From the NCBI GenBank assembly GCA_031378375.1, contig JANNEF010000105.1:693-64692 (forward strand): DNA of 64,000 nucleotides, given 5' to 3'. Position numbers and translations under genes: made by a program. This document shows positions 3,758 through 28,685 of this stretch, in pieces; position 1 is the stretch's first letter, and every line of letters starts with the position of its first letter. The notes beneath the pieces were generated by a model. That model had not been told where the DNA came from and searched no databases. It was given only the letters and a program-made list of their open reading frames with translations. The stretch is from Verrucomicrobiota bacterium. Its GTDB lineage: Bacteria > Verrucomicrobiota > Verrucomicrobiia > Limisphaerales > JANNEF01.

Positions 3758-6496
3758 TTACTTGTCCAGGCACGCGCGAACCATTTCCGCCAGCTTGGGC
3801 GGCGGGTAGGGTTTTTGGAGGAAGACGGTGTCGCGCCGGCCCATGTCGCGCCCCATGATGTCGGCGCTGTATCCACTGGTGTAAATCACTTTGAGGTCCG
3901 GTTTGCGCGACCTCAATTCATCGGCGAGTTCGCGACCGGTCATGCCTTCCGGCATTACCATGTCCGTAAGCAGCAGATCGATGTTGCCGCCGCGCTTCTC
4001 CCAGACTTTCAGGGCGTCCACGCCGGAGCAGGCCTCCAGCACTTCATAGGCGTAATCCTTGAGGATCATCTGGGCGAGCTCACGCAGGACTGGCTCATCT
4101 TCGACGAGCAGGATGGTCTCGCGTCCACCTTTCACGGCCGGTGGGGCGGCTTTTTCAACCACGACCTCGGCGGTCTTGGTGGTTACCGGGAGGTAAACTT
4201 TGAACGTGGTGCCAACGCCAATTTCGCTGGTGACTTCGAGCCAGCCTTGATGCTGTTTGACGATGCCATACACGGTGGCCAGGCCCAGCCCGGTGCCTTT
4301 GCCGACGGGCTTGGTGGTGAAGAACGGCTCGTAAATACGGTTCAAGGTTTCACGGTCCATGCCACACCCGGAGTCGGCCACGCTCAGGCAGATGAACTGG
4401 CCGGGGCGCGCGTCGGGATGTTGTTGGGCGTAGGCGTCTCCGACCTGGACCGTCTTGGTGGCGACAAGCAGGCGCCCGCCTTTGGGCATCGCATCACGGG
4501 CGTTGACGGAGAAATTCATGATCACTTGTTCGATCATGCCCGCGTCGCCTTCGATAAAGGCCGGCTCGGGCGTGCAACTGCACTCCAGGGCAATGTCGTC
4601 GCCCAGCAGGCGGTGGAGCATCTTGGACAAGTCGCGGAGCAAGCCATTTATATCCAGCACGCGCGGCTGCATGACCTGCTTGCGGCTGAACATAAGCAAT
4701 TGGCGCGTGAGACCAGCGGCGCGGCTGGCGGCATCGGAAACCTGTTTGAGCGGATCGCCGGCTCGCGGATCGAGGTCGGCCATGCCCAGCAAACGATCGG
4801 CGTGGCCCTGGATGATGGTGAGAATATTGTTAAAATCGTGGGCGACACCGGCGGCCAGTTGACCGACGGATTCGAGTCTTTGCGCATGGAGCAATTGCGC
4901 TTCGAGGTTGAGCCGGTCGGTCACGTCCTGCCCGTAGCAATGCACCACGTGATTGGCCAGGATGGGGAAAAAGGACCAGGAGAGCGTTCGTTCGTTGATG
5001 CAGATTTCCTGGCGCAATCTGCTCTGGCCCGTGCGCAGGCATTCCTGCGCCGTCGCCGAGGCACAGGGTGGCAGAATCGCCGCCGCATCCGCGACCGTGA
5101 GCGAGAGCGCCATTTCTGACGCGGCCTGGTTCAAGTAAGTGAGCGTACCGTCGGACGCCAGTTCCAACACCGGATCCGGATTAAAGCGCGGAAAGGCGGC
5201 GAGCTTGCGGATTTCCGCCTCGGCCCGTTTGCGCTCGGTGATGTCGGTGATGGTGCCCGACGTGCCCAGATCCGTGCCAAGCGTGGGCTGCGCGTACACC
5301 TCCACCCAGCGAAACGTGCCGTCGCTGGCGATGAAACGTGTCTCATCACGGCAAAAGCTTTTTCCCCGTTGGATGACTTCTTGAAATACTTCGCAGTGAC
5401 GTTCGCGGTCTTCCGGGTGGACATAATCCACGAACGACTTGCCGAGGGATTCTTTAATCTTGAAACCCGTAATCTCCGTCCACGCGGGATTGAGGAACGT
5501 CCACTGGCCGGCGTCGTTCACCTGAAAGATGACTTCCTTAATGCTCTCGACCACCGAACGATAACGAACTTCACTGGCACCCAAGGCTTCCTCGGAACGT
5601 TTGCGCTCGACACACAAGGCAATGCCGTTGGCAACCGATGACATCTCCTGCAGCACCGTCGGAGCGAAAGGCTGGCTACTATAGATGACCATCAGTCCAA
5701 CGGGCCGTTCCTCGAGCATCAAGGGATAGCCGGCACACGCGACAATCCCTTCGCGCTTGACCCAGTCGCGGTCAGCCACGGGCGTTTCTTTCAACGCGGG
5801 ATTGAACAGAAATGGTTTCCCCTCAGCGATAAGGTCCGGCGGAGAAGTGGTGCGCGAGTTGCACTGTGGATACCCATCCGGGTCGGTGATGGTGCCGACG
5901 CTGGCCTGCAGTTGAAGCAACCCGGCCTCCGGATCAAAAGTCCAGATGCGCGACAACTCCGCCTGGAGATAATTCGACATGGCCGCCGCGCAACGATGCA
6001 AAATCGCATCCAACGAGTCGCGACGGGTCAACGCCAGGCCAACCTCCGCGCCAAAGGCTGCCAGCCTCGCCTGATCCGCCGCCGCCGCCGCCGCAGCGCG
6101 CTGGCGGCCAACGGCATAGCGGATGGAGCGCTCCAGCGAACACGCATCGAGACGGCTCTTGATCAGATAATCCGCCGCGCCGGCCTGCATCGCTTCGAGG
6201 TCGATCTCGTGTTCGCCCTGCCCGGTGAGAAGGATGATGGGCGAGGTGCAGCCCCGTTCCAGCGCCGCCCGCAATACTTCAACGCCGGTTTGGGCGCCGA
6301 GCCGGTAGTCCACCAGACAGATATCATGCTGATTGAGCACCAGCGCTTCGAGGCCGGCGGCGGGATTTTTCACCCACTCCAATTGGAAGCGCCCCCCTTG
6401 AATCTCGGAGAAAAGACTTTTCGTCAGGATGAAATCGTCCTCGTCATCCTCGATCAGAAGAACCTTCAAGGGTTCGTTATGCGTGGGGGACTGCAC
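3758..6496 (-). CDS. Hybrid sensor histidine kinase (receiver-GAF/PAS-HisKA-HATPase-receiver)
   Basis: 912 aa. It has an N-terminal receiver (LLIEDDEDD...DICLVDYRL), PAS-like segments, an H-box ([13 protein letters not shown]), ATPase boxes ([25 protein letters not shown]) and a C-terminal receiver (ILLVEDEP...[14 protein letters not shown]). The GTG start at 6496 overlaps the upstream receiver stop by 1 nt. Confidence 0.9.
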
Positions 6497-19848: not shown

Positions 19849-20646
19849 ATGCGCGGCGAACTCTGGCGGAAAACCCGGGGCGTGCCAATGGCCAACTTGC
19901 GCCTGCATTCCAGGCCGCGACCAAACAATCTTATTTCTCGCCGCGCGGCGGGGATGTGCGACGTTGGGCGTGTTCCCGTGAGCCACCGCCGCAACATCGC
20001 GCTATTCCTATTGCCAGCCATGATCCTGGCCGCTTTCGCCTGCTGTCTGCTCGCACCGCTGGAGCCGGTTCATCAGGGCCGCCGGCTCGCCGCCTGGTTG
20101 CAGGATTTCGACAGCGCCTCGCCGCAACGACGCGACCGCGCGGCGGAGGCCGTTCGGCAAATGGGCGCGGCCGTCGTGCCGTCACTGGTCGAAATCCTCC
20201 GCCAACGCGACTCCGGCTTCAAAGTCGCACTTGGCAAATGGATGAACGCGGTCGTCCCGGTCCAACTCTATTTCAGGCCGGCGGGGGAACGGCACCGGCA
20301 GGCGATCCAGGCGTGCCGGGCGCTGGGCCCGGCGGGGCGTCCGGCCATCCCGGAGTTGATCGCGCTGCTCAACGATGCCGAATCTTCCAGCGCAGCCGCG
20401 CACGCGCTGGCGGTGATTGATCTGCGCATCTTCCCGCTGTCCCGCGCGCTGACCGACGGGAACTACGCGGCCCCGGTGCGGCGGAGCATCGCGCTGCGGC
20501 TGGCCTGCGGCTGGTATAACCCGCAGCAGGTGGTGCCCGCGCTGGTGCAAGGGCTTCAGGACGCCGACAGCGGCGTCAGCGTGGCCGCCGCAGAATCGTT
20601 GAAGCGGATCGATCCGGCGGCGGCGGCCCGGTTGGGGCTGAAGTAA
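19849..20646 (+). CDS. HEAT-repeat protein with N-terminal membrane anchor or signal
   Basis: 265 aa. It carries repeated HEAT/PBS-lyase-type helices (AVVPSLVEILRQRD, AIPELIALLNDAES, VVPALVQGLQDADSGVSVAAAESL). The start codon is uncertain. Confidence 0.65.
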   Translation: MRGELWRKTRGVPMANLRLHSRPRPNNLISRRAAGMCDVGRVPVSHRRNIALFLLPAMILAAFACCLLAPLEPVHQGRRLAAWLQDFDSASPQRRDRAAEAVRQMGAAVVPSLVEILRQRDSGFKVALGKWMNAVVPVQLYFRPAGERHRQAIQACRALGPAGRPAIPELIALLNDAESSSAAAHALAVIDLRIFPLSRALTDGNYAAPVRRSIALRLACGWYNPQQVVPALVQGLQDADSGVSVAAAESLKRIDPAAAARLGLK

Positions 20647-20738
20647 GGCGCGACCATTTCATGCGGTCGCCGGTTGACGGAGAAACCGAACGCATTTTCT
20701 GGTTTTTAAGGTGGGAACCGTTACTATTCGCGCGACAA

Positions 20739-21728
20739 ATGAATACTGGAATCACTGCCATCAACGACGAAGTCCAAAAGGCCAGCGCCTTCGTGCGCCC
20801 GCTGTTTGCCGAGATCGGCAAGGTCGTCATCGGCCAGAGCTATCTGGTCGAACGCCTCGCCATCGGCCTGCTCGCCGGCGGGCATGTGCTGCTCGAAGGT
20901 GTGCCCGGTCTGGCGAAAACGCTCTCGGTGAAAACGCTCGCCGCGTGCCTCAACGTAAAGTTTTCCCGCCTGCAATTCACGCCCGACATGCTGCCCGCCG
21001 ATGTCATCGGCACGCAGATTTACAACCCGCAGAGCGGCGGCTTCACCACGCGCAAAGGCCCGATCTTCGCCAACCTCGTCCTCGCCGACGAAATCAACCG
21101 CGCGCCCGCCAAGGTGCAAAGCGCGTTGCTCGAAGCGATGCAGGAGAAACAGGTGACCATCGGCGACCAGACCTACAAGCTGGAGGAACCGTTCCTCGTG
21201 CTCGCCACGCAAAACCCCATCGAGCAGGAAGGCACCTACCCGCTGCCCGAAGCGCAGGTTGACCGCTTCATGCTCAAGTTGAAGATCGGCTATCCCAGCC
21301 GCGACGAGGAGCGGCAAATCCTCGACCTGATGGCGCGCACCAGCAACCTGCCCACCGCCAGTTCGGTGGTGGAACCGAAACAGATTTTGAAGGCGCGCCA
21401 GGTCATCAACGACATCTACGTGGACGACAAGGTGAAGGATTACATCGTGGACCTCGTCTGCGCCACGCGCGACCCGGCGCAATACAAAATCCAGCTCCAG
21501 GGTCTCATCCAGCTCGGCGCGTCACCGCGCGCGACCATCAACCTCACGCTGGCGGCCAAGGCGTATGCCTTCCTCAAGGGCCGCGGCTACGTCACGCCGC
21601 AGGACGTGAAGAGCATCGGCATGGATGTGCTGCGCCACCGCGTCGCCATCACCTACGAAGCCGAGGCGGAAGACAAGACGAGCGAGACGATTGTGCAGAA
21701 GATTTTTGATGAGTTGCCGGTGCCGTGA
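20739..21728 (+). CDS. moxR: MoxR-family AAA+ ATPase
   Basis: Track ORF trimmed to the ATG at 20739 (MNTGITAINDEV). Has Walker A LLEGVPGLAKT, Walker B VLADEINRA and LATQNPIEQEGTYPLPEAQVDRF. Confidence 0.93.
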   Translation: MNTGITAINDEVQKASAFVRPLFAEIGKVVIGQSYLVERLAIGLLAGGHVLLEGVPGLAKTLSVKTLAACLNVKFSRLQFTPDMLPADVIGTQIYNPQSGGFTTRKGPIFANLVLADEINRAPAKVQSALLEAMQEKQVTIGDQTYKLEEPFLVLATQNPIEQEGTYPLPEAQVDRFMLKLKIGYPSRDEERQILDLMARTSNLPTASSVVEPKQILKARQVINDIYVDDKVKDYIVDLVCATRDPAQYKIQLQGLIQLGASPRATINLTLAAKAYAFLKGRGYVTPQDVKSIGMDVLRHRVAITYEAEAEDKTSETIVQKIFDELPVP

Positions 21729-21867
21729 TTAACGCTCTCCGATGGCAACTCTCACCAATTTCAGCATCCATGACGAACCGAGTTCCGGCCAGAGGATCTG
21801 CGCATGCACTCTCGAACGTCCTCGAGGCACCCTCGACACCGAGCGACACACGAGGTAAAACCAGTCC

Positions 21868-22143
21868 ATGAGCAAGACACTCACTTTGCAGTATCCAGAC
21901 AACCTGCCCGCCACGCTGCACATGACCGCTCCGGAATTCGAGCGCGAAGCCAAACTGTCCATGGCAGTGAAACTTTACGAAACCGGCAAACTCTCCTCCA
22001 GCCAGGCGGCCGCGCTGGTGAGCCTGCCGCGCGTTCACTTCCTCTACGAACTGGCCCGGTTTGGCGTCTCGCCACAGCAGTTGGACGCCGGAGAACTTGC
22101 GACCGACCTCGCCCATGCCGAACAAGCCCTCGCTGGTCATTAA
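21868..22143 (+). CDS. UPF0175-family antitoxin
   Basis: 91 aa. The pattern L.YPD.LP..L.M...EF.REAK...AVKLYE.GKLS..QAA.L matches UPF0175. It overlaps the downstream PIN-like gene. Confidence 0.75.
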   Translation: MSKTLTLQYPDNLPATLHMTAPEFEREAKLSMAVKLYETGKLSSSQAAALVSLPRVHFLYELARFGVSPQQLDAGELATDLAHAEQALAGH

Positions 22144-22612
22144 CACCAGCCCGCTCGTCGCACTGATGACTGGCTTGGATGATTTCCATGTCCTCGGCGA
22201 AGTGGCGACACTGGTGGTGCCGGGAGAAGTCATGGCCGAGCTTCAGGCCGGAAAGGCGCGCGATGATGTTGCCAAGAGAATCGCGTCCACCCCCAGCTGT
22301 GCGATTCGTGCGAACCTTCCGTCCCTGCCGCTGTCCCTCCAGAGCGCGCTGGGCGCGGGCGAGGCCGCGGTCATTCATACGGCCCTGACGGAATCCATTT
22401 CCACAGTCGTCATTGATGAACGCAATGGGCGCCGCACGGCTGCGCTCCCCGGTCTACGTGTAACTGGCTCGCTCGGCCTGCTGCTCGCGTTGCAAAGGCG
22501 CGGCTTGGTGACGTCAATCCGGCCGGCGATCGCGCGGATGAAAGCGAAGGGCATTCATCTCAGCGACGACTTGGTGAACGAGGCGCTACAATTGGAAGGA
22601 GGCAAGCGATGA
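22115..22612 (+). CDS. DUF3368-family PIN-like toxin
   Basis: Track ORF trimmed to the ATG at 22115 (MPNKPSLVINTSPLVALMTGL). The NTSPL..L, VPGEVMAEL and GEAAVI segments fit DUF3368/PIN-like proteins, which are normally paired with UPF0175. Confidence 0.75.
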   Translation: MPNKPSLVINTSPLVALMTGLDDFHVLGEVATLVVPGEVMAELQAGKARDDVAKRIASTPSCAIRANLPSLPLSLQSALGAGEAAVIHTALTESISTVVIDERNGRRTAALPGLRVTGSLGLLLALQRRGLVTSIRPAIARMKAKGIHLSDDLVNEALQLEGGKR

Positions 22613-22636
22613 ACAGAAACCCATCACGCTTCACCT

Positions 22637-22722
22637 GCCGCGGCGGCATCACCTGCGCGGCGGAGGACAAGACGAGCGAGACCATCGTGCGGAAGATTCT
22701 TGATGGGTTGCCGGTGCCGTGA
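22637..22722 (+). pseudogene. Duplicated 3' end of moxR (remnant)
   Basis: 22659-22722 aligns with moxR 21665-21728 at 58/64 identical nt (hand count), including the stop. It translates as ...ITCAAEDKTSETIVRKILDGLPVP*, versus moxR ...ITYEAEAEDKTSETIVQKIFDELPVP*. Confidence 0.85.
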
Positions 22723-23435
22723 TCAGAGTCGCCACATCCACCGTGAGAATCGCCCTGGTAGGAGACCACAGTCCCGATGTGAAGGCCCACGCGGCCATTC
22801 CCAAAGCTTTGACCCTGGCTGCCGGAACTGTTGGCACGGAGGTTTCAGTCGAATGGCTCCCAACGCAGGCGCTGCTTGGCAATGACCTCAAAAGACTGGG
22901 CGGTTTCCAAGGTATCTGGTGCGTGCCCGGCAGCCCATACGTGAGCATGGAGGGAGCGCTCCGGGCGGTTCGATTCGCCCGCGAGCGCATGGTTCCATTC
23001 CTCGGCACTTGTGGTGGGTTCCAGCACACACTAATCGAGTATGGCCGGAGCGTGCTCGCTTTGACCGAGGCCGACCATGCCGAGTCCAACCCTTCCGCAA
23101 GTTTCGCCCTGATCGCTCCCCTGTCCTGCCCTCTCAGAGAAACCGTCGCGCGCATCCATCTCCGTCCAGGCTCACGCGCAGAAGTCATTTATGGTCAGCC
23201 AGAGACAATCGAGACGTTCAACTGCGGCTACGGGCTTAACCCGGAGCACCAAACGCTCTTCTCAAATGGCGCCTTGCGCATCAGCGGCGTGGCGGACGAC
23301 GGATCGGTACGCATTGTGGAGTTGCAGGATCATGCTTTCTTCCTGGCTGCTTTGTTCCAACCCGAACGATCGGCAGAGCGCAACCATTCACATCCGCCGA
23401 TCGTGGCATTTGCTCGCGCCGCACTCGCCGCATGA
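22719..23435 (+). CDS. Class I glutamine amidotransferase-like protein (CTP synthase C-terminal-domain homolog)
   Basis: 238 aa. VRIALVGD, FLGTCGGFQ (nucleophile elbow) and HAFFLAALFQPERSAERNHSHPPIVAFARAA align with the CTP synthase GATase domain (E. coli ...[31 protein letters not shown]). The GTG start overlaps the remnant moxR stop (GTGA), and the stop overlaps the remnant DUF58 start (ATGA). Confidence 0.75.
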   Translation: MIRVATSTVRIALVGDHSPDVKAHAAIPKALTLAAGTVGTEVSVEWLPTQALLGNDLKRLGGFQGIWCVPGSPYVSMEGALRAVRFARERMVPFLGTCGGFQHTLIEYGRSVLALTEADHAESNPSASFALIAPLSCPLRETVARIHLRPGSRAEVIYGQPETIETFNCGYGLNPEHQTLFSNGALRISGVADDGSVRIVELQDHAFFLAALFQPERSAERNHSHPPIVAFARAALAA

Positions 23436-23490
23436 TCCTCCGCGAAATTCTCAAAAAACTCCGGCAGATCGAGATTTGCTCGAACCGTGT
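23432..23490 (+). pseudogene. Duplicated 5' end of the DUF58 gene (remnant)
   Basis: 23432-23487 aligns with the true DUF58 start 24076-24131 at 51/56 identical nt (hand count): MILREILKKLRQIEICSNR versus MIPREILKKIRQIEIRTNR. Similarity ends after ~19 codons. Confidence 0.85.
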
Positions 23491-23506
23491 TCTGCCGGTG
23501 TTCCGT

Positions 23507-23806
23507 TCAATTCAACCGTCGCCGCAACTCGGCGGGATTCCGTGCACCGTGAAAAAACGCGACCACATGGACCGCATTCAACTCAATCGAGTAATAAATG
23601 CTGTAGGGAAATCGTTTGAGAATGGCTTTATGCGTGGCAGGCGCGGCGAGACGAAACCTTTCGGGAACCGTAATAATCTGCTGAAGCATTTCCTGCACTT
23701 CGAGGGTGAATTCATCGCTCAATCCCGGGCGCTGGTTTTCATACCACGCCGCAGCGTCCTCAAACTCCAGCCGGGCGAGCGGCGCGAAAATGATTTCGCG
23801 CCTCAT
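23507..23806 (-). CDS. RelE/ParE-family type II toxin
   Basis: 99 aa. FAPLARLEFEDAAAWYENQRPGL, FPYSIYYSIE and VHVVAFFHGARNP are typical of ParE/RelE plasmid-stabilisation toxins. The start overlaps the antitoxin stop (ATGA). Confidence 0.8.
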   Translation of the reverse strand: MRREIIFAPLARLEFEDAAAWYENQRPGLSDEFTLEVQEMLQQIITVPERFRLAAPATHKAILKRFPYSIYYSIELNAVHVVAFFHGARNPAELRRRLN

Positions 23807-24036
23807 GCCTTGCGGCTTTTCAAACGTTCAGCGAGTTCGGCTTGCACGGTTTCCCAAGGAATGCCGCGTTCAGGATGCTGCCGCAATTCTTCCGCGCGAC
23901 GTTCAAGTTCGGTGATCTGTTCCAGCGTGAGTTCGTCATCGAAATCGCCGAACTCTTCGCGGACTTTTTCGGCGACTTCTTGTTGTTCCCCGGGCGGCAA
24001 CCGGCGGATTTGTTCCAGAATTTCTGTCGCGCTCAT
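23803..24036 (-). CDS. Addiction-module antitoxin (TIGR02574-like component)
   Basis: This is the last 77 codons of the spurious 610-aa track ORF 23803..25635: MSATEILEQIRRLPPGEQQEVAEKV...GIPWETVQAELAERL. The pattern fits the small 'addiction module component' antitoxins found upstream of ParE/RelE genes. Confidence 0.7.
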   Translation of the reverse strand: MSATEILEQIRRLPPGEQQEVAEKVREEFGDFDDELTLEQITELERRAEELRQHPERGIPWETVQAELAERLKSRKA

Positions 24037-24075
24037 GGAACCAAATTTAGCGGTCACGATACATTTTGCAAGCGC

Positions 24076-25026
24076 ATGATCCCCCGCGAAATCCTCAAAA
24101 AAATCCGGCAGATCGAGATTCGCACGAACCGGCTCGTGAGCGAGACGCTTGCGGGCCAGTACCACAGCGTCTTCAAAGGCCAGGGCATGAACTTCGAGGA
24201 AGTGCGCGAATACCAGCCGGGCGACGAGGTGCGCGCCATTGATTGGAACGTCACCGCGCGCATGAACCATCCGTTCGTGAAAAAGTTCGTCGAAGAGCGC
24301 GAGCTGACGCTCATGCTGCTCGTGGACCTGAGCGGCTCCGGCCTGTTCGGCTCTGGCGAGCAGAGCAAGCGCGAACTGGCGGCGGAAATCGCGTCGGTGC
24401 TCGCCTTCTCCGCCATCCGCAACAATGACAAGGTGGGCTTGATTCTGTTCACCGATGAGGTGGAGAAGTTCATGCCGCCGCGCAAGGGCAAGAAACACGT
24501 CTTGCGGGTCATCCGGGAAATTCTTTTCTCCGAGCCGAAGCGGCGCGGCACGGACTTGAACTGCGCGCTGGAATTCCTGGTGCGCGTCACGCCCCATCGC
24601 GCCATCGCGGTGATTCTGTCGGATTTTCTGGAGCCGGGCACCGCCAGTCCGATCTCCCGCCTTCGTCCCGGCGCGACGGGTGAGACGAAGAACCTCGCCC
24701 AGGCCTCCTACACCGCACTGCGCCAGGCCAATCGCCGGCACGATGTCGTCGCGGTGCAAATCGCCGACCGCTTCGAGCAGGAACTGCCCGCGCTGGGCCG
24801 CCTCGTGCTCAAGGACGCGGAAACGGGCGAAGTGGTGGAAGTGAACTCCAGCGACACGCGCAAGCGCGACGCCTTCGCGCGGCAGCAGGCGGTGGCGCAG
24901 GAGGAGTTGATGCGCCTGTTCCGCTCCGCGCGCATTGACGCAATCCAGTTGCGCACCGACCAGCCGTACGGCTCGGAGCTGGGGCGGTTCTTCGAGACAC
25001 GGGAGAAACGGCGGATGCGTGGTTAA
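24076..25026 (+). CDS. DUF58 domain protein (Bat operon member)
   Basis: Track ORF trimmed to the ATG at 24076 (MIPREILKKIRQIEIRTNRLV). GQYHSVFKGQGMNFEEVREYQPGDEVRAIDWNVTAR and LLVDLSGS are DUF58 hallmarks. Confidence 0.9.
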   Translation: MIPREILKKIRQIEIRTNRLVSETLAGQYHSVFKGQGMNFEEVREYQPGDEVRAIDWNVTARMNHPFVKKFVEERELTLMLLVDLSGSGLFGSGEQSKRELAAEIASVLAFSAIRNNDKVGLILFTDEVEKFMPPRKGKKHVLRVIREILFSEPKRRGTDLNCALEFLVRVTPHRAIAVILSDFLEPGTASPISRLRPGATGETKNLAQASYTALRQANRRHDVVAVQIADRFEQELPALGRLVLKDAETGEVVEVNSSDTRKRDAFARQQAVAQEELMRLFRSARIDAIQLRTDQPYGSELGRFFETREKRRMRG

Positions 25027-25038
25027 ATGAGTTGCTGA

Positions 25039-25659
25039 ATGGCCGCCACCAACCACGCTCTCATCGTCCCGCCGCCGTCGCCCGCCGCCGTCGCGGCGAC
25101 GAACAACATTCGCGCCATCAAACCGCCGGTGGAGATTCCCAACGACTGGGCGTGGCTGTGGTGGACGCTTGCGGCCGTCGCACTCATCGCGGCGGGGGTA
25201 TGGCTGTGGATTTGGTGGAAGCGAAAACATGCCCGCCCCGTCGCGGTCGTGGTTGTGCCGCCGCACATGCGCGCGAAGCAAAAACTGGCGGAGGCGCTGG
25301 CGCTCATTCACGATCCCCGCCTGTTCTGCATCGCGGTGTCGGACGCGCTGCGCTGGTATCTGGAGGAACGGTTCCGGCTCCACGCGCCGGAGCGGACAAC
25401 TGACGAGTTCCTCGTGGAGTTGCAATCCTCCAACGCGCTGCTGGCTGGTCAAAAGAGTGGACTGGGTGAATTCCTCCAAAACTGCGACCTGGTGAAGTTC
25501 GCCCGCTTTGAGCCGACGGAAGCCGCGCTGCGCGAGTTGCACGAGGCCGCGCTGCGACTGGTGGACGAAACGCAATACGAGCCTCCCGCTCCCGCGTCCG
25601 TCGGCAACGTGCCGCCACCCGATGCTGTCACGCACGACGCACCCCGCGCCACCCCCTGA
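25039..25659 (+). CDS. DUF4381 domain membrane protein
   Basis: 206 aa. It has IRAIKPPVEIP, a single TM segment (WLWWTLAAVALIAAGVWLWIWW) and CDLVKFARFEP. It occupies the usual position between DUF58 and BatA. Confidence 0.8.
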   Translation: MAATNHALIVPPPSPAAVAATNNIRAIKPPVEIPNDWAWLWWTLAAVALIAAGVWLWIWWKRKHARPVAVVVVPPHMRAKQKLAEALALIHDPRLFCIAVSDALRWYLEERFRLHAPERTTDEFLVELQSSNALLAGQKSGLGEFLQNCDLVKFARFEPTEAALRELHEAALRLVDETQYEPPAPASVGNVPPPDAVTHDAPRATP

Positions 25660-25660
25660 G

Positions 25661-26656
25661 ATGACCTTCGCGCATCCCTATTTTTTGTTGCTGTTGTTGC
25701 TGCTTCCGGTGATCGCGTGGCTGCGGGGCAAGCACGGCCCGCGGGCGGCGTTTCTTTATTCATCCGTGCAGTTGGTGCAGGATGTCTCCCACGTCAGCCG
25801 TTCGAGCGCGGGCCGGGTTTTGACGGCCCTGCGCTGGCTGACGCTGGCGTTGTTCATCGTGGGGCTGGCGCGGCCGCAACTGGTCGAGAGCGAGACCACC
25901 GTCAACGCCAGCGGCATTGACATCGTGCTGGCGGTTGATCTTTCCGGCAGCATGGAATCGGAAGACTTCACGCTCAAAAACCAACGCGTGAACCGCCTCG
26001 TGATCGCCAAGGATGTGTTGAAGAAATTCATCGAACGCCGCCCGGGCGATCGCATCGGGCTGGTGGCATTTGCCGGCAAGGCGTACATCGCCGCCCCGAT
26101 GACGCTCGACCACGGCTTCCTGCAACAAAACCTGGAGCGCCTCGCCCTGCACTCCATTGAGGACGGCACCGCCATTGGTTCCGGCCTGTCGGCTTCAATC
26201 AACCGGCTGCGCGATCTGAAATCCAAGAGCAAGATCGTCATCCTGATGACCGACGGACAGAACAACGCGGGCAAAGTCCCGCCGCTCACCGCCGCCGAGG
26301 CTGCGCAGACTCTGGGCGTGAAGGCTTACACCATCGGCGTCGGCACGCGCGGCACCGCGCCCATGCCGCGCATGAATGTCTTCGGCCAGAAAGTCTATGT
26401 GCAGGTGCCGGTGGACATTGACGAGGAGACGCTCCAGGCCATCGCGAAAAAAACCGGCGGCAAGTATTATCGCGCCGACAGCACGGACACCTTGCGCAAG
26501 ATTTACGACGAGATCGATCAACTGGAAAAGACCGAGGTCGAAGTGAAGAAGTATGTGCGCATCGAAGAACTGTTTTTCTGGGCGGTGGCGCCGGGGCTGG
26601 GGCTGCTGCTGCTGGAGATTTTGTTGAACAACACAATTTGGCGGAGGCTGCCGTGA
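25661..26656 (+). CDS. batA: VWA-domain membrane protein BatA
   Basis: Track ORF trimmed to the ATG at 25661 (MTFAHPYFLLLLLLLPVIAW). It has a VWA MIDAS motif (DIVLAVDLSGSM, ILMTDGQNN) and a C-terminal TM segment. Confidence 0.88.
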   Translation: MTFAHPYFLLLLLLLPVIAWLRGKHGPRAAFLYSSVQLVQDVSHVSRSSAGRVLTALRWLTLALFIVGLARPQLVESETTVNASGIDIVLAVDLSGSMESEDFTLKNQRVNRLVIAKDVLKKFIERRPGDRIGLVAFAGKAYIAAPMTLDHGFLQQNLERLALHSIEDGTAIGSGLSASINRLRDLKSKSKIVILMTDGQNNAGKVPPLTAAEAAQTLGVKAYTIGVGTRGTAPMPRMNVFGQKVYVQVPVDIDEETLQAIAKKTGGKYYRADSTDTLRKIYDEIDQLEKTEVEVKKYVRIEELFFWAVAPGLGLLLLEILLNNTIWRRLP

Positions 26657-26660
26657 GGGG

Positions 26661-26786
26661 AATAGTAATCAGTGGGTCAATAATCAGTGAATCAGTCACT
26701 GAGAAGCGAGGTTCACCGTCCCGCATAGCTGCGATCGCCATTGATCACTGGTTCACTGATTACTGACCTACTGACCCACTGACAAC
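26661..26786. repeat. CAGT-word palindromic element (batA-batB intergenic copy)
   Basis: The left arm is AGTAATCAGTGGGTCAATAATCAGTGAATCAGTCACTGAG. The right arm is TTGATCACTGGTTCACTGATTACTGACCTACTGACCCACTGAC, e.g. TCAGTGGGTCA pairs with TGACCCACTGA. The spacer is ~37 nt. Confidence 0.85.
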
Positions 26787-26789
26787 GCC

Positions 26790-28685
26790 ATGCGCTTTGA
26801 ACATCCCGAACTGCTGTGGTTCCTCCTGCTCGCCGTGCCGGCGCTGACCGCCTTTCTCTGGTGGGCCTGGCGGCGGAAGCGGGCGCTTATCGCGCAGTTC
26901 GTCCGGTCGCGGTTGCTGGCGAACCTCACAGTGGGCGTTTCGACCACGCGGCAAAAAGCGCGGCTGGCTTTGCTCGTCGCCAGCGTCGCGCTGCTCATCG
27001 TGGCGCTGGCGCGGCCCCAGTGGGGTTTCGACTGGGAGGAGGCGCGGCAGCGCGGGCTGGACATCATCGTGGCGATTGACACCTCGCGCAGCATGCTGGC
27101 CGAGGACGTCGCGCCCAACCGCCTGGAGCGCGCCAAACTCGCCGCGATGGATTTGAAAAAACTCGCGCGCATGGACCGGCTGGGCCTGGTCGCCTTCGCC
27201 GGCAGCGCCTTCCTGCAATGCCCGCTCTCCACCGACGACGAGGCGTTCCGCCAAAGCGTGAACGCGCTCGATGTGAACATCATTCCCCAGGGCGGCACGG
27301 CGCTGGCGGAGGCAATCCAGTCGGCCTTGAGCGCCTTCAAGGAAAAGAGCGACAACCACAAGGTGCTCGTGCTGTTCACCGACGGCGAGGATCACGACGG
27401 CAGCGCCCTGGCCGCCGCCAAACAGGCGGCGAAGGACGGGCTGCGCATCTTCACCGTCGGCGTGGGCACGCCGAACGGCGAGTTGCTGCGCCTCCCCGGC
27501 TCGAAGGGGCGGAGCGAGTTCATCAAGGATACGTCGGGCAACGTGGTGAAGTCGCGGCTGGATGAGCAGTTGCTCCGGCAGATGGCGCAGTCGGCGGAAG
27601 GATTTTACCTGCTCCTGAGCGGAGCCAACACGATGGATGTGCTCTACGAGCGCGGCCTGGCGCCGCTGCCGAAGGCGGAGTTCTCGGCCAAGCGGGTGAA
27701 GCGCCCCCACGAGCGTTACCAATGGCTGCTGGGATTGACGATGGTGCTATTGTTGGTCGAGATGTTTTTGCCGGAACGAAAGATCGCACGAGACGCCGGG
27801 GTGATGACCGAAGGCGGCGTCAGCGCCGGACTGCCGAAGGCGGTCGCGCTGTTGCTGCTGCTCGCGTGGCCGGGATTCGCCACCGCCTCGCCTGCCGGCG
27901 CGTTGAAAAAGTACGAGAACGGGAAATACGAGTCGGCGCTGCTGGAATATCAGCGGCTGATCAAGAAGAAGCCCGGCGATCCGCGGCTGGAATTCAATGC
28001 GGGCGCGGCGGCGTATCAGGCGCAGGATTTCCAGGAAGCGTTGAAGCACCTGAATTCCTCGCTCCTCACTCCCGATGTGCCGCTACAGCAGCGCGCCTAT
28101 TACAATCTCGGCAACACGCAGTATCGGGTGGGTGAGGACGCGGCCGAACCACAGAAAAAGCAGGAAGTGTGGGAACAGGCGGTGACGAGCTACGAGAGCG
28201 CGCTCAAACTGAACCCGGCGGACGAAGACGCGAAGTTCAACCTCGACCTGGTGAAGACGAGGCTGGAGGAACTCAAGAAGCAGCAGCAACAGCAGCAGTC
28301 CAAGGATGGCAAGGACGACAAGGACAAAAAGGGCGATCAGAAGAAGGACGAGCAATCCAAGAACGACCAGAAGCAGGACGGAAAGAAGTCCGACGAGCAG
28401 AAACAGCAGGAGCAGCAAAAACAGGAACAGCAGAAGCAGCAGGAGAATCAGGAGGCGAAGAAAGACGGGCAGAAGCAGGACGAACAAAAACAGGCGCAAC
28501 AGAACCAACCCGACGACAAATCAGACAAACCGGAAGACGCCCAGGCTGGCCACACGATGATGGTGCGGATGACCCCGAAGGAAGCGCAACAGTTGCTCGA
28601 CGCGCAGAAGGGCGAGGAGAAGGCTATGATTTTTCAGCCACAGTTGAAGACCAACCGGAACGAGCGCGTGTTCAAGGACTGGTGA
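26790..28685 (+). CDS. batB: VWA + TPR membrane protein (BatB/BatC-type fusion) with Lys/Gln/Glu-rich tail
   Basis: 631 aa. Starts MRFEHPELLWFLLLAVPAL and has a VWA MIDAS motif (DIIVAIDTSRSM, LFTDGEDHDG). It also has a TM segment, TPR repeats (YENGKYESALLEYQRLIKKKP, AYYNLGNTQY) and a ~90-aa K/Q/D/E low-complexity region. Confidence 0.88.
   Translation: MRFEHPELLWFLLLAVPALTAFLWWAWRRKRALIAQFVRSRLLANLTVGVSTTRQKARLALLVASVALLIVALARPQWGFDWEEARQRGLDIIVAIDTSRSMLAEDVAPNRLERAKLAAMDLKKLARMDRLGLVAFAGSAFLQCPLSTDDEAFRQSVNALDVNIIPQGGTALAEAIQSALSAFKEKSDNHKVLVLFTDGEDHDGSALAAAKQAAKDGLRIFTVGVGTPNGELLRLPGSKGRSEFIKDTSGNVVKSRLDEQLLRQMAQSAEGFYLLLSGANTMDVLYERGLAPLPKAEFSAKRVKRPHERYQWLLGLTMVLLLVEMFLPERKIARDAGVMTEGGVSAGLPKAVALLLLLAWPGFATASPAGALKKYENGKYESALLEYQRLIKKKPGDPRLEFNAGAAAYQAQDFQEALKHLNSSLLTPDVPLQQRAYYNLGNTQYRVGEDAAEPQKKQEVWEQAVTSYESALKLNPADEDAKFNLDLVKTRLEELKKQQQQQQSKDGKDDKDKKGDQKKDEQSKNDQKQDGKKSDEQKQQEQQKQEQQKQQENQEAKKDGQKQDEQKQAQQNQPDDKSDKPEDAQAGHTMMVRMTPKEAQQLLDAQKGEEKAMIFQPQLKTNRNERVFKDW

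What the first reader, a model, noticed from the sequence alone, without database searches (positions are those of the whole stretch)
22719..23435. Stand-alone CTP-synthase-type amidotransferase with catalytic His replaced by Gln, wedged between gene remnants
The protein aligns along its length with the glutaminase domain of CTP synthase. It keeps the nucleophile Cys (GTCGGFQ, Cys98) and the triad Glu. Where CTP synthase has FHPE it has FQPE (Gln214), so the general-base His of the Cys-His-Glu triad is missing.

The gene is translationally coupled on both sides, but to the remnant copies (GTGA with the moxR remnant, ATGA with the DUF58 remnant). This suggests it was once a genuine member of a moxR-X-DUF58 operon. 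An amidotransferase-like protein is not a known Bat/MoxR operon component.
Basis: partly seen in the sequence, partly recalled or inferred. Interest (0 to 1): 0.55.

Follow-up and report, generated by a model that had tools for sequence, protein, structure and literature searches.

The report
His-less CTP-synthase-like protein in Bat operon
This intact, selected gene belongs to a catalogued but unstudied bacterial protein family derived from the glutamine-splitting half of CTP synthase; the whole family has lost the catalytic histidine, and here the gene is an optional passenger between two genes of a MoxR/Bat operon.

Summary
Window 22719-23435(+) is an intact 238-aa ORF that aligns end to end with the CTP synthase glutaminase domain. 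It keeps Cys98 and Glu216 and has Gln214 where the triad His should be. Its start and stop overlap short remnants of moxR (3' end) and DUF58 (5' end).

The His loss is not a lesion of this gene. [quoted passage not shown] In 109 full-length representatives the His position is Gln (63), Val/Leu/Ile/Ala/Met (42) or other (4), never His. Cys98 (Sec in some members), Gln102, Cys137, Cys169, His24, His103 and His120 are conserved.

The gene is under purifying selection (omega 0.18-0.27), weaker than its neighbours (0.03).

A moxR-GAT-DUF58 arrangement exists only in a Pedosphaera-like subclade (at least 62% identity). It is absent from about 155 other family loci and from four closer relatives that have moxR-DUF58 without it. 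The junction is an insertion hot spot that repeatedly leaves gene-end remnants.

Function is unknown. Classical glutamine amidotransfer is unlikely; I infer Cys/Sec-centred chemistry on a small molecule. Moderate interest; new member of a known, uncharacterised family.

The parts
20739..21728 (+). Full-length moxR (AAA_3 MoxR ATPase, 329 aa from the ATG at 20739; the ORF opens at 20661). Its last 68 nt (21662-21729) are the parent of the upstream remnant.
   Evidence: Pfam AAA_3 2.7e-66 and AAA_lid_2. Relatives align from residue 27. Repeat D1.
21868..22143 (+). Inserted cassette TA1, antitoxin-like UPF0175 protein (91 aa).
   Evidence: Pfam UPF0175 3e-22. Absent from L001 and L085, where moxR abuts GAT.
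22115..22612 (+). Inserted cassette TA1, DUF3368 (PIN-like) toxin-type protein (165 aa). Its TGA overlaps the ATG of the remnant ORF.
   Evidence: Pfam DUF3368 4.9e-13. PADLOC candidate defence family PDC-S70 1.7e-33.
22609..22722 (+). 37-aa ORF carrying the moxR 3' remnant (22656-22723, 90% identical to 21662-21729). It links the TA1 toxin stop (ATGA) to the GAT start (GTGA), so it probably preserves translational coupling for GAT.
   Evidence: The same 37-aa ORF is kept open in L002 and L003.
22719..23435 (+). The finding: a 238-aa NF004836 protein (CTPS C-terminal region-related). Cys98 is encoded at 23010-23012, Gln214 at 23358-23360 and Glu216 at 23364-23366.
   Evidence: NF004836 301.7 bits against a cutoff of 260, covering 9-235 of the protein and 1-227/228 of the profile. 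AF2 pLDDT 97. Foldseek CTPS TM 0.89. omega 0.18-0.27.
23429..23487 (+). DUF58 5' remnant (first ~19-21 codons), 92% identical to 24073-24131. Its ATG overlaps the GAT stop (ATGA).
23507..23806 (-). Inserted cassette TA2, ParE-family toxin (99 aa).
   Evidence: Pfam ParE_toxin 2.5e-06. Same layout in L002.
23803..24036 (-). Inserted cassette TA2, antitoxin-like 'putative addiction module component' (77 aa).
   Evidence: Pfam Unstab_antitox 3e-08 and TIGR02574.
24076..25026 (+). Full-length DUF58 (VWA-type) gene of the Bat operon. Its first 56 nt are the parent of the downstream remnant.
   Evidence: Pfam DUF58 4.6e-80 and VWA_2.
25039..28685 (+). Rest of the Bat-type operon: DUF4381-like (25039-25659), BatA (25661-26656) and BatB VWA+TPR (26790-28685).
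   Evidence: Pfam. Same gene order in relatives L084, L086, L088 and L170-L173.

Best explanation
The gene encodes an intact, expressed-looking member of the uncharacterised family NF004836. This is a stand-alone descendant of the CTP synthase glutaminase domain.

**Active site.** In this family the canonical His (and often the Glu) of the Cys-His-Glu triad was lost ancestrally. The nucleophile-elbow Cys (selenocysteine in some members) was kept, and a new set of conserved residues arose: His24, Trp46, His103, His120, Cys137 and Cys169. It is therefore not a decaying gene. It is also most likely not a glutamine amidotransferase. I infer that it performs His-independent chemistry centred on Cys98 (thiol/selenol redox, or covalent catalysis) on a small-molecule substrate.

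**Genomic setting.** In this Pedosphaera-like lineage the gene sits as an accessory gene between moxR and DUF58 of a Bat operon. That junction is a recombination hot spot. Two toxin-antitoxin cassettes later inserted on either side of the gene. Each insertion duplicated the adjoining gene end. The upstream remnant remains an open 37-aa ORF that chains TA1, the remnant and GAT by overlapping stop/start codons, probably preserving GAT translation.

**Shown:** family membership, family-wide absence of His, purifying selection, fold, the clean ancestral arrangement in relatives, and patchiness.

**Inferred:** the chemistry, the role of the remnants in coupling, and the insertion mechanism.
For: **Family membership and fold**
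- NF004836 scores 301.7 bits over a cutoff of 260, full length.
- The AF2 model has pLDDT 97 and TM 0.89 to CTPS GATase domains.

**Residue conservation**
- In the 120 closest homologues plus the query, Cys98, Gln214 and Glu216 are invariant in 121/121 sequences.
- In 109 full-length representatives of 50%-identity clusters, position 214 is Q (63), V/L/I/A/M (42), other (4) and His (0). Position 216 is E or Q.
- Cys98, Gln102, Cys137, Cys169, His24, His103, His120 and Glu122 stay conserved in both the Q-type and the hydrophobic-type subfamilies.
- A selenocysteine form with motif GxUxG (= G96-x-U98-x-G100) is listed for NF004836 in PMC13188914.

**Other CTPS glutaminase and GTP elements are replaced**
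- PGSPY stands where CTPS has PGGFGY. G352P abolishes glutaminase activity and DON labelling in EcCTPS (PMC9138612).
- PLSCPLRE stands where CTPS has GG(T/S)(M/L)RLG.
- N168 and G170 stand where CTPS has R468 and R470.

**Selection**
- omega is 0.18-0.27 among the window, L001 and L002. Neutrality is rejected at p<1e-7.
- All three ORFs are indel-free.

**Gene context**
- Clean moxR|GAT|DUF58 with 4-nt overlaps occurs in L085, and moxR|GAT in L001.
- All loci with at least 62% identity lie between moxR and DUF58.
- None of about 155 other family loci does.
- L170-L173, which are closer relatives by MoxR and DUF58 identity, lack GAT.
- DUF58-5' or moxR-3' remnants recur next to other cassettes in L084, L086, L090, L092 and L173.
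Against: - No biochemical data exist for any member, so the chemistry is inference.
I could not test whether Cys98, Cys137, Cys169, His24, His103 and His120 cluster in space.
- Gln102 and Glu122 (EcCTPS Gln383 and Glu403) are retained. A glutamine-like ligand and an alternative base (His120 or His103, or a His supplied by a partner subunit) therefore cannot be excluded.
- omega is about 8-fold higher than in the flanking moxR and DUF58 (0.03). Constraint is real but comparatively weak.
- All six group-B genomes carry GAT coupled to DUF58. That could also mean a real functional tie to the Bat system in this clade.
Confidence: 0.7

Rival explanations
1. It is still a working glutaminase (or gamma-glutamyl hydrolase). 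It uses Cys98 with a relocated general base, such as His120 or His103 or a His donated by an oligomer partner, and supplies ammonia or hydrolyses a glutamine-like amide.
For: - Cys98, Gly100, Gln102 and Glu122 (= EcCTPS C379, G381, Q383, E403) are conserved.
- His103 and His120 are 82-84% conserved in the 91-sequence alignment and lie in segments that line the CTPS pocket.
- There is precedent for a triad residue supplied in trans: GatD/MurT appeared among the hits (PMC5871853, PMC6085368), but the papers were not read, so the point rests on prior knowledge.
Against: - No synthase domain and no conserved partner gene: 139 different Pfam families occur among 150 immediate neighbours.
- The oxyanion/lid loop is one residue shorter and contains Pro (PGSPY). 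G352P kills EcCTPS glutaminase.
- The His and Glu positions are hydrophobic and Gln in about 40% of the family.
- Sec replacement of the nucleophile is typical of redox enzymes rather than amidohydrolases (general knowledge; PMC13188914).
Confidence: 0.15
2. It is a catalytically dead pseudoenzyme: a binding or scaffold module derived from a GATase fold, comparable to viral pseudo-GATs.
For: Loss of His, of the GG oxyanion loop and of the GTP-activation motifs. Pseudo-GAT precedent in PMC7605207.
Against: - Cys98 is present in 145/151 diverse representatives and invariant in the 91-sequence alignment.
- A selenocysteine variant exists at exactly this position. Sec insertion is costly and is essentially confined to catalytic sites (PMC13188914; general knowledge).
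- A new set of invariant Cys and His residues points to a rebuilt rather than abandoned site.
Confidence: 0.08
3. In this clade the protein is a genuine functional partner of the Bat system: a client, cofactor-handling factor or regulator of the MoxR ATPase / DUF58-VWA machinery. It is not a passenger.
For: - All 12-13 loci of the at-least-62%-identity subclade lie between moxR and DUF58. L085 has 4-nt overlaps on both sides.
- The arrangement persists across genomes whose MoxR differ by 14-16% and whose GAT differ by about 37%.
- Coupling is maintained through remnant ORFs even after insertions.
Against: - The family has no MoxR or DUF58 linkage anywhere else (0 of about 155 loci in the same orientation).
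- Four relatives closer to the window by MoxR and DUF58 identity lack it.
- The same junction collects unrelated cassettes: TA modules, DUF5069, DUF2442 and hypothetical proteins.
- omega is 8-fold higher than in the flanks.
- Domain fusions point to small-molecule enzymes (GNAT, methyltransferase, ABM), not chaperone systems.
Confidence: 0.15
4. It is a decaying relic (pseudogene in the making) stranded between gene fragments after rearrangements.
For: It is flanked by truncated copies of moxR and DUF58 and by mobile TA cassettes. omega is higher than in its neighbours.
Against: - The 238-codon ORF is intact, with no indels against two relatives.
- omega is 0.18-0.27, with neutrality rejected at p<1e-7. 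This includes the pair window/L002, which share the interrupted layout.
- Every family hallmark residue is present.
Confidence: 0.02

Closest known systems
[quoted passage not shown]
   Same: Full-length match above the curated cutoff (301.7 vs 260 bits). Stand-alone ~230-aa protein. GxC/UxG nucleophile motif. Gln (or a hydrophobic residue) at the triad-His position, and the same conserved Cys/His set.
   Different: Nothing at the sequence level: it is a member. It differs from most members only in genomic context, being embedded between moxR and DUF58 and bracketed by remnants and TA cassettes. The family has no described function. Sources often label members 'hypothetical protein' or wrongly 'CTP synthase'.
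Glutaminase (class I GATase) domain of CTP synthase PyrG (e.g. E. coli 1S1M, S. solfataricus 3NVA)
   Same: Same fold (TM 0.86-0.89, 24-31% identity). Retained residues: Cys379, Gly381, Gln383, Arg369, Glu403, His506, Pro516, Glu517 and His526-Pro527 equivalents.
   Different: - No N-terminal synthase domain.
- His515 becomes Gln.
- PGGFGY becomes PGSPY.
- The GG(T/S)(M/L)RLG GTP-activation motif becomes PLSCPLRE.
- Arg468 and Arg470 become Asn and Gly.
- New conserved residues: His24, Trp46, His103, His120, Cys137, Cys169.
- It scores 118.8 bits against a PyrG cutoff of 462.75.
Bat (Bacteroides aerotolerance)-type MoxR-DUF58-BatA-BatB operons
   Same: The surrounding genes form a canonical set, HEAT-MoxR-DUF58-DUF4381-like-BatA-BatB, in the same order as in Pedosphaera parvula and other relatives.
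   Different: A GATase-fold gene is not part of the canonical set. Close relatives L170-L172 have moxR followed directly by DUF58. No paper in the searched library links MoxR, DUF58 and a glutamine amidotransferase.
DJ-1/PfpI-type proteins and other GATase-fold proteins that use the elbow Cys without the classical triad (recalled from memory; a lead, not tested)
   Same: Flavodoxin-like GATase fold with a conserved nucleophile-elbow Cys used for redox-sensitive or His-independent chemistry.
   Different: No detectable sequence relationship was found here: Pfam and NCBIfam hits are only to GATase/CTPS models. The resemblance is mechanistic speculation only.

Membership tests
[quoted passage not shown] | HMM score above the curated whole-protein cutoff, with end-to-end coverage | tested here: met
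   301.7 bits vs cutoff 260. Residues 9-235 match profile positions 1-227 of 228.
[quoted passage not shown] | Stand-alone protein of ~230 aa without the CTPS synthase (amidoligase) domain | tested here: met
   238-aa ORF bounded by other genes or remnants. Homologues are mostly 225-260 aa.
[quoted passage not shown] | Cys or Sec in the GxC/UxG nucleophile-elbow motif | tested here: met
   G96-T-C98-G-G100. Cys is invariant in the 91-sequence alignment. The GxUxG Sec form is listed in PMC13188914.
[quoted passage not shown] | Non-His residue at the triad-His column, plus family-specific His24/His103/His120/Cys137/Cys169 (a feature derived here, not from the curators) | tested here: met
   The window protein has Q214 and all five residues. 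In the family the column is Q 63, hydrophobic 42, other 4, His 0 of 109.
Class I (triad) glutamine amidotransferase, Pfam PF00117 | GATase class-I fold and domain model match | tested here: met
   PF00117 36.4 bits vs cutoff 22.8. AF2/Foldseek TM 0.89 to CTPS GATase domains.
Class I (triad) glutamine amidotransferase, Pfam PF00117 | Catalytic Cys in the nucleophile elbow | tested here: met
   Cys98 aligns to EcCTPS Cys379.
Class I (triad) glutamine amidotransferase, Pfam PF00117 | Catalytic His (general base) of the Cys-His-Glu triad | tested here: not met
   Gln214 aligns to His515. No His occupies this column in any family member.
Class I (triad) glutamine amidotransferase, Pfam PF00117 | Triad Glu | tested here: met
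   Glu216 = Glu517 in this protein. The column is Glu or Gln (and a few others) across the family.
Class I (triad) glutamine amidotransferase, Pfam PF00117 | Partner synthase domain or subunit that receives ammonia | tested here: not met
   No fused synthase domain. No conserved neighbour in 80 GTDB loci: 139 Pfam families among 150 neighbours.
Class I (triad) glutamine amidotransferase, Pfam PF00117 | Glutaminase activity | not testable with these tools
   Requires an enzyme assay.
CTP synthase PyrG (TIGR00337 / NF003792) | Score above the equivalog cutoff, with the N-terminal amidoligase domain present | tested here: not met
   118.8 bits vs 462.75. Only profile positions 287-526 are matched.
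CTP synthase PyrG (TIGR00337 / NF003792) | GTP-activation elements: GG(T/S)(M/L)RLG motif, Arg468/Arg470, flexible Gly352 lid | tested here: not met
   PLSCPLRE, N168/G170 and PGSPY occupy those positions. The roles of the motifs are from PMC9138612.
Core component of Bat/MoxR-DUF58 operons | Consistent co-occurrence with moxR and DUF58 across the protein family and across the operon's carriers | tested here: not met
   Linked only in the subclade with at least 62% identity. 0 of about 155 other family loci have it in the same orientation. Four close relatives have moxR-DUF58 without it.

The most novel reading that the evidence does not exclude
NF004836 proteins are a new enzyme class that evolved from the CTP synthase glutaminase domain. 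The His/Glu dyad was discarded, and the old glutamine pocket was rebuilt around three conserved cysteines (Cys98, or Sec, plus Cys137 and Cys169) and His24/His103/His120. The rebuilt site would be a thiol/selenol redox or metal-handling site. In Pedosphaera-like Verrucomicrobia this protein was recruited as a working partner or client of the MoxR AAA+ / DUF58-VWA (Bat 'aerotolerance') machinery. That would give the long-obscure Bat system a tractable biochemical handle.
Probability: 0.12. Interest if true: 0.7.

Novelty: new member of a known kind. Interest (0 to 1): 0.4.

Why it matters
**The family.** NF004836 is widespread. About 600 hits were found in one-genome-per-species GTDB. The 80 loci kept span Chloroflexota, Acidobacteriota, Paenibacillus, Pseudomonas, Burkholderiales, Gemmatimonadota, Myxococcota, Nostoc and Verrucomicrobiota. 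It is frequently mis-annotated as 'CTP synthase'. Showing that the whole family lacks the catalytic His, yet conserves the Cys (or Sec) and a new Cys/His constellation, defines a clear enzymology problem. It also warns against transferring 'glutamine amidotransferase' annotations. Recurrent fusions to GNAT acetyltransferases, methyltransferases and ABM monooxygenases give starting points for finding the substrate.

**The junction.** The moxR-DUF58 junction is a small natural example of a chromosomal hot spot. Inserted cassettes there regenerate the interrupted gene ends and leave a trail of remnants. This is of interest for genome dynamics and for annotation of short 'orphan' ORFs.

Tried and rejected
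1. **Conserved partner genes.** I clustered the three genes either side in 80 GTDB loci and scanned 150 immediate neighbours with Pfam. Only clade-specific synteny turned up (Pseudomonas: LysR divergent, ABM downstream). Nothing was family-wide.
2. **PADLOC defence models** for GAT, MoxR and DUF58: no hits. Only the DUF3368 toxin hit (PDC-S70).
3. **Rfam scan** of 20000-26000 at E<=0.1: nothing.
4. **Promoter/terminator scan** of 20400-25200: no sigma-70-like sites, and one terminator-like site inside the TA2 region, below the shuffle expectation. Uninformative for this phylum.
5. **Literature.** PRK06186 gave 0 papers. MoxR+DUF58+glutamine amidotransferase gave 0. A stand-alone CTPS glutaminase domain gave 0. 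The only mention of the family is a selenoprotein table.
6. **Spatial clustering.** I wanted distances between the conserved Cys and His residues in the AF2 model, but coordinates are not exposed, so this was not tested.
7. **A recalled role for EcCTPS Arg470.** I first recalled that Arg470 binds the glutamine carboxylate. The review I could read assigns Arg468 and Arg470 to the GTP site instead, so I dropped the claim.
8. **ParE dN/dS** between the window and L002 was misaligned (a length difference) and is disregarded.
9. **Pseudogene idea** rejected.
Full report
**1. The observation**

Window 22719-23435(+) is an intact ORF of 238 codons with a GTG start and a TGA stop.

- The GTG overlaps the TGA of a 37-aa ORF (22609-22722).
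- The 3' part of that ORF (22656-22723) is 90% identical over 68 nt to the end of the complete moxR gene (21662-21729). With a 6-nt gap the similarity reaches back about 85 nt.
- The TGA of the ORF overlaps the ATG of a copy of the DUF58 start (23429-23487). This copy is 92% identical over 59 nt to 24073-24131.

The protein aligns over residues 5-237 with the C-terminal glutaminase domain of CTP synthases.

- PDB hits reach E=3e-30.
- NCBIfam PyrG models cover profile positions 287-526.
- An AlphaFold2 model built on a 91-sequence alignment has mean pLDDT 97. It superposes on CTPS glutaminase domains with TM 0.86-0.89.
- I added E. coli PyrG, taken from MG1655, to the family alignment. This gives Cys98 = Cys379, Gln214 = His515 and Glu216 = Glu517.

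**2. What it is**

[quoted passage not shown] It scores 301.7 bits against a curated cutoff of 260, with residues 9-235 on profile positions 1-227 of 228. It is far below the PyrG cutoffs (118.8 vs 462.75). Pfam sees only a weak GATase match (36 bits).

**3. The missing His is a family trait**

- Among the 120 closest homologues (53-82% identity) plus the query, Cys98, Gln214 and Glu216 are invariant in 121/121 sequences.
- A search of 1.8 billion 50%-identity representatives gave 267 hits below 1e-30.
- Among 109 full-length representatives of these, the His column is Gln in 63, Val/Leu/Ile/Ala/Met in 42 and other residues in 4. It is never His.
- The Glu column is Glu or Gln (a few other residues occur).
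- By contrast, Trp46, Arg88, Cys98, Gly100, Gln102, Cys169 and Pro215 are invariant in the 91-sequence alignment. His24, Cys137, Glu107, Glu165, Arg198 and Glu201 are at least 90% conserved. His103, His120 and Glu122 are 82-89% conserved.
- These residues are conserved equally in the Gln-type and the hydrophobic-type subfamilies.

Mapping to E. coli CTPS separates inherited from family-specific residues.

- Inherited from CTPS: His205 (= His506) and His225-Pro226 (= His526-Pro527).
- Family-specific: His24 (Tyr305), His103 (Val384), His120 (Ser401), Cys137 (Gly437) and Cys169 (His469).

Other CTPS functional elements are also replaced.

- The oxyanion/lid segment PGGFGY is PGSPY, one residue shorter and containing a Pro. 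In E. coli CTPS, G352P abolishes glutaminase activity and DON labelling of Cys379 (PMC9138612).
- The GTP-activation motif GG(T/S)(M/L)RLG is PLSCPLRE.
- Arg468 and Arg470 are Asn and Gly.

A recent review of prokaryotic selenoproteins lists NF004836 with the motif GxUxG. This places selenocysteine at exactly the Cys98 position (PMC13188914). I found no other literature on the family.

**4. Is the gene alive?**

Yes.

- Two metagenomic relatives have ungapped, intact ORFs: L001 (82% aa identity) and L002 (85%).
- Nei-Gojobori omega is 0.24 (window-L001), 0.27 (window-L002) and 0.18 (L001-L002).
- The deficit of non-synonymous changes rejects neutrality at p<1e-7.
- L002 shares the interrupted layout, so selection continued after the insertions.
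- All family hallmark residues are present.

There is a caveat. For the same genome pairs, moxR and DUF58 have omega about 0.03, and dS of GAT is 1.6-1.8 times that of the flanks. The gene is therefore constrained, but much less tightly than its neighbours.

**5. The moxR-X-DUF58 idea**

The locus map is as follows:

| Element | Coordinates |
|---|---|
| HEAT-repeat protein | 19849-20646 (+) |
| moxR | 20739-21728 (+) |
| TA1: UPF0175 | 21868-22143 (+) |
| TA1: DUF3368 | 22115-22612 (+) |
| ORF with moxR 3' remnant | 22609-22722 (+) |
| GAT | 22719-23435 (+) |
| DUF58 5' remnant | 23429-23487 (+) |
| TA2: ParE | 23507-23806 (-) |
| TA2: antitoxin | 23803-24036 (-) |
| DUF58 | 24076-25026 (+) |
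| DUF4381-like | 25039-25659 (+) |
| BatA | 25661-26656 (+) |
| BatB | 26790-28685 (+) |

*Relatives that support a former direct arrangement.*
- L001 has moxR overlapping GAT by 4 nt with no TA cassette, and ends in the DUF58 start.
- L085 has moxR|GAT|DUF58 with 4-nt overlaps on both sides.
- L084, L086/L087, L088, L090, L091, L092 and L138 also place GAT between moxR and DUF58.

*Evidence that the association is narrow.*
- In loci fetched through the GAT protein, every one with a phmmer score of at least 307 (at least 62% identity) that has flanking sequence on the contig is Bat-embedded.
- No locus with a lower score is: 80 GTDB loci from many phyla and about 75 metagenome loci. The only near case is a Pedosphaera MAG (L013), with moxR/DUF58 2.6 kb away on the other strand.

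*The association is patchy even locally.*
- L170, L171 and L172 (the Pedosphaera parvula DUF58 protein, P0373) have moxR followed by DUF58 after 49-104 nt.
- L173 has a different set of cassettes and no GAT.
- Yet their MoxR (88-92%) and DUF58 (80-84%) are closer to the window's than those of the GAT-carrying group B (84-86% and 75-79%).

GAT is thus an accessory gene of this junction. It is either old and repeatedly lost, or moved between lineages.

**6. The remnants**

The junction is an insertion hot spot that regenerates gene ends. Besides the window and L002 remnants:
- L084 has a 238-aa ORF plus DUF58 codons 1-26 upstream of GAT.
- L086/L087 have a 114-aa ORF plus DUF58 codons 1-44 upstream. 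Downstream they have DUF5069 plus a 314-aa ORF that begins with DUF58 codons 1-21.
- L090 has two DUF58-start remnants upstream of GAT, and L092 has one.
- L173 has a moxR 3' remnant after a DUF2442 cassette.

These remnants are 75-94% identical at the DNA level to the resident DUF58 start. Some of them are ORFs that end at or just before the GAT start.

In the window the chain is: DUF3368 stop/ATG (ATGA), then the 37-aa remnant ORF, then GTGA to GAT, then ATGA to the DUF58 remnant. No terminator-like site lies between moxR and GAT. I infer two things:
- The remnants persist because they keep GAT translationally coupled.
- Cassettes enter by recombination anchored in the highly conserved moxR 3' and DUF58 5' ends. 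This could be Campbell-type integration of circles carrying a copy of the gene end, or homology-facilitated illegitimate recombination.

The mechanism is not shown.

**7. Function**

No family-wide neighbour exists. The 150 immediate neighbours carry 139 Pfam families, led by ABM monooxygenase (9, all Pseudomonas-type), LysR (7), MFS, DinB_2 and ArsR-type regulators (4 each).

Domain fusions among the representatives are more telling:
- Five independent GNAT acetyltransferase fusions, N- or C-terminal.
- Two SAM-methyltransferase fusions.
- One ABM fusion, echoing the Pseudomonas neighbour.
- One GyrI/Cass2 effector-binding domain.
- One ankyrin fusion and one chorismate mutase fusion.

These point to small-molecule modification or detoxification rather than to AAA+/VWA chaperone systems.

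The evidence combined is: loss of His, Glu, the oxyanion loop and the GTP elements; an invariant Cys (or Sec); and new conserved Cys and His residues. The most likely reading is a His-independent, Cys/Sec-centred enzyme (redox or covalent catalysis) acting on something other than free glutamine.

- This is inference. I could not measure distances in the model, because coordinates are not exposed.
- A relocated general base (His120/His103, or one supplied in trans) remains possible.

**8. Comparison, novelty and verdict**

The protein is a member of NF004836, with all features met. It has the fold of a class I GATase but fails that class's defining His and partner criteria. It is not a CTP synthase, and it is not a core Bat component.

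The family is catalogued but functionally unknown, and is often mis-annotated as 'CTP synthase'. The gene is therefore a new member of a known kind, in an unusual, lineage-specific context.

Interest is moderate, at 0.4. The family-wide rewired active site and the Sec variant make a good enzymology target. The hot spot is a neat genome-dynamics case. Nothing here overturns expectations, and the Bat link is probably opportunistic.

Noticed in passing
window 21662-21729 / 22656-22723 and 23429-23487 / 24073-24131; L084:4849-4926; L086:4864-4995 and 6163-6225; L090:47-121 and 310-393; L092:43-117; L173:2958-3008: In Pedosphaera-like genomes the moxR-DUF58 junction is a recurrent insertion hot spot. 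Unrelated cassettes (TA modules, DUF5069, DUF2442, hypothetical ORFs, and the GAT gene itself) sit between moxR and DUF58. Each is accompanied by a truncated copy of the DUF58 start (codons 1 to 21-44) or of the moxR end, 75-94% identical to the resident copy. The mechanism is unknown; candidates are Campbell-type integration or homology-facilitated illegitimate recombination.
   Followed up: partly
window 21868-22612 (+): The UPF0175/DUF3368 pair inserted after moxR matches the PADLOC candidate anti-phage defence family PDC-S70. The DUF3368 protein scores 1.7e-33 and the UPF0175 protein 7e-4.
   Followed up: no
proteins P0127, P0139, P0208, P0210, P0223 (GNAT); P0129, P0166 (methyltransferase); P0252 (ABM); P0173 (GyrI/Cass2); P0202 (ankyrin); P0237 (chorismate mutase): NF004836 domains are repeatedly fused to small-molecule-modifying or small-molecule-binding domains, with GNAT in both N- and C-terminal positions. 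The ABM fusion mirrors the GAT-ABM gene pair conserved in Pseudomonas loci (e.g. L075:6690-7022). These are possible Rosetta-stone clues to the substrate.
   Followed up: partly
window 22719-23435 vs 20739-21728 and 24076-25026: For the same genome pairs the GAT gene evolves much faster than its flanks: omega 0.24-0.27 against 0.03, and dS 0.30-0.42 against 0.17-0.26. Elsewhere, L086 and L088 have MoxR 98% and DUF58 97% identical but GAT only 77%. This could reflect weak constraint or allelic exchange of the cassette.
   Followed up: partly
window 28275-28544 (+), inside BatB (26790-28685): A 90-residue low-complexity Lys/Gln/Asp/Glu-rich linker (KKQQQQQQSKDGKDDKDKK...) lies near the C-terminus of the BatB-like VWA+TPR protein.
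   Followed up: no
window 23432-24079 (+) and 23842-25026 (+): Long spurious-looking ORFs run antisense through the TA2 cassette. One (215 aa) starts from the DUF58 remnant. The other is an N-terminally extended DUF58 reading frame (394 aa). Public gene calls for relatives show the same extension (P0271 383 aa, P0278 394 aa), so DUF58 starts are probably mis-annotated there.
   Followed up: no
L084:4136-4852 (+): A 238-aa ORF with no Pfam match occupies the position between moxR and the DUF58 remnant upstream of GAT. It has the same length as GAT but no detectable similarity to it.
   Followed up: no
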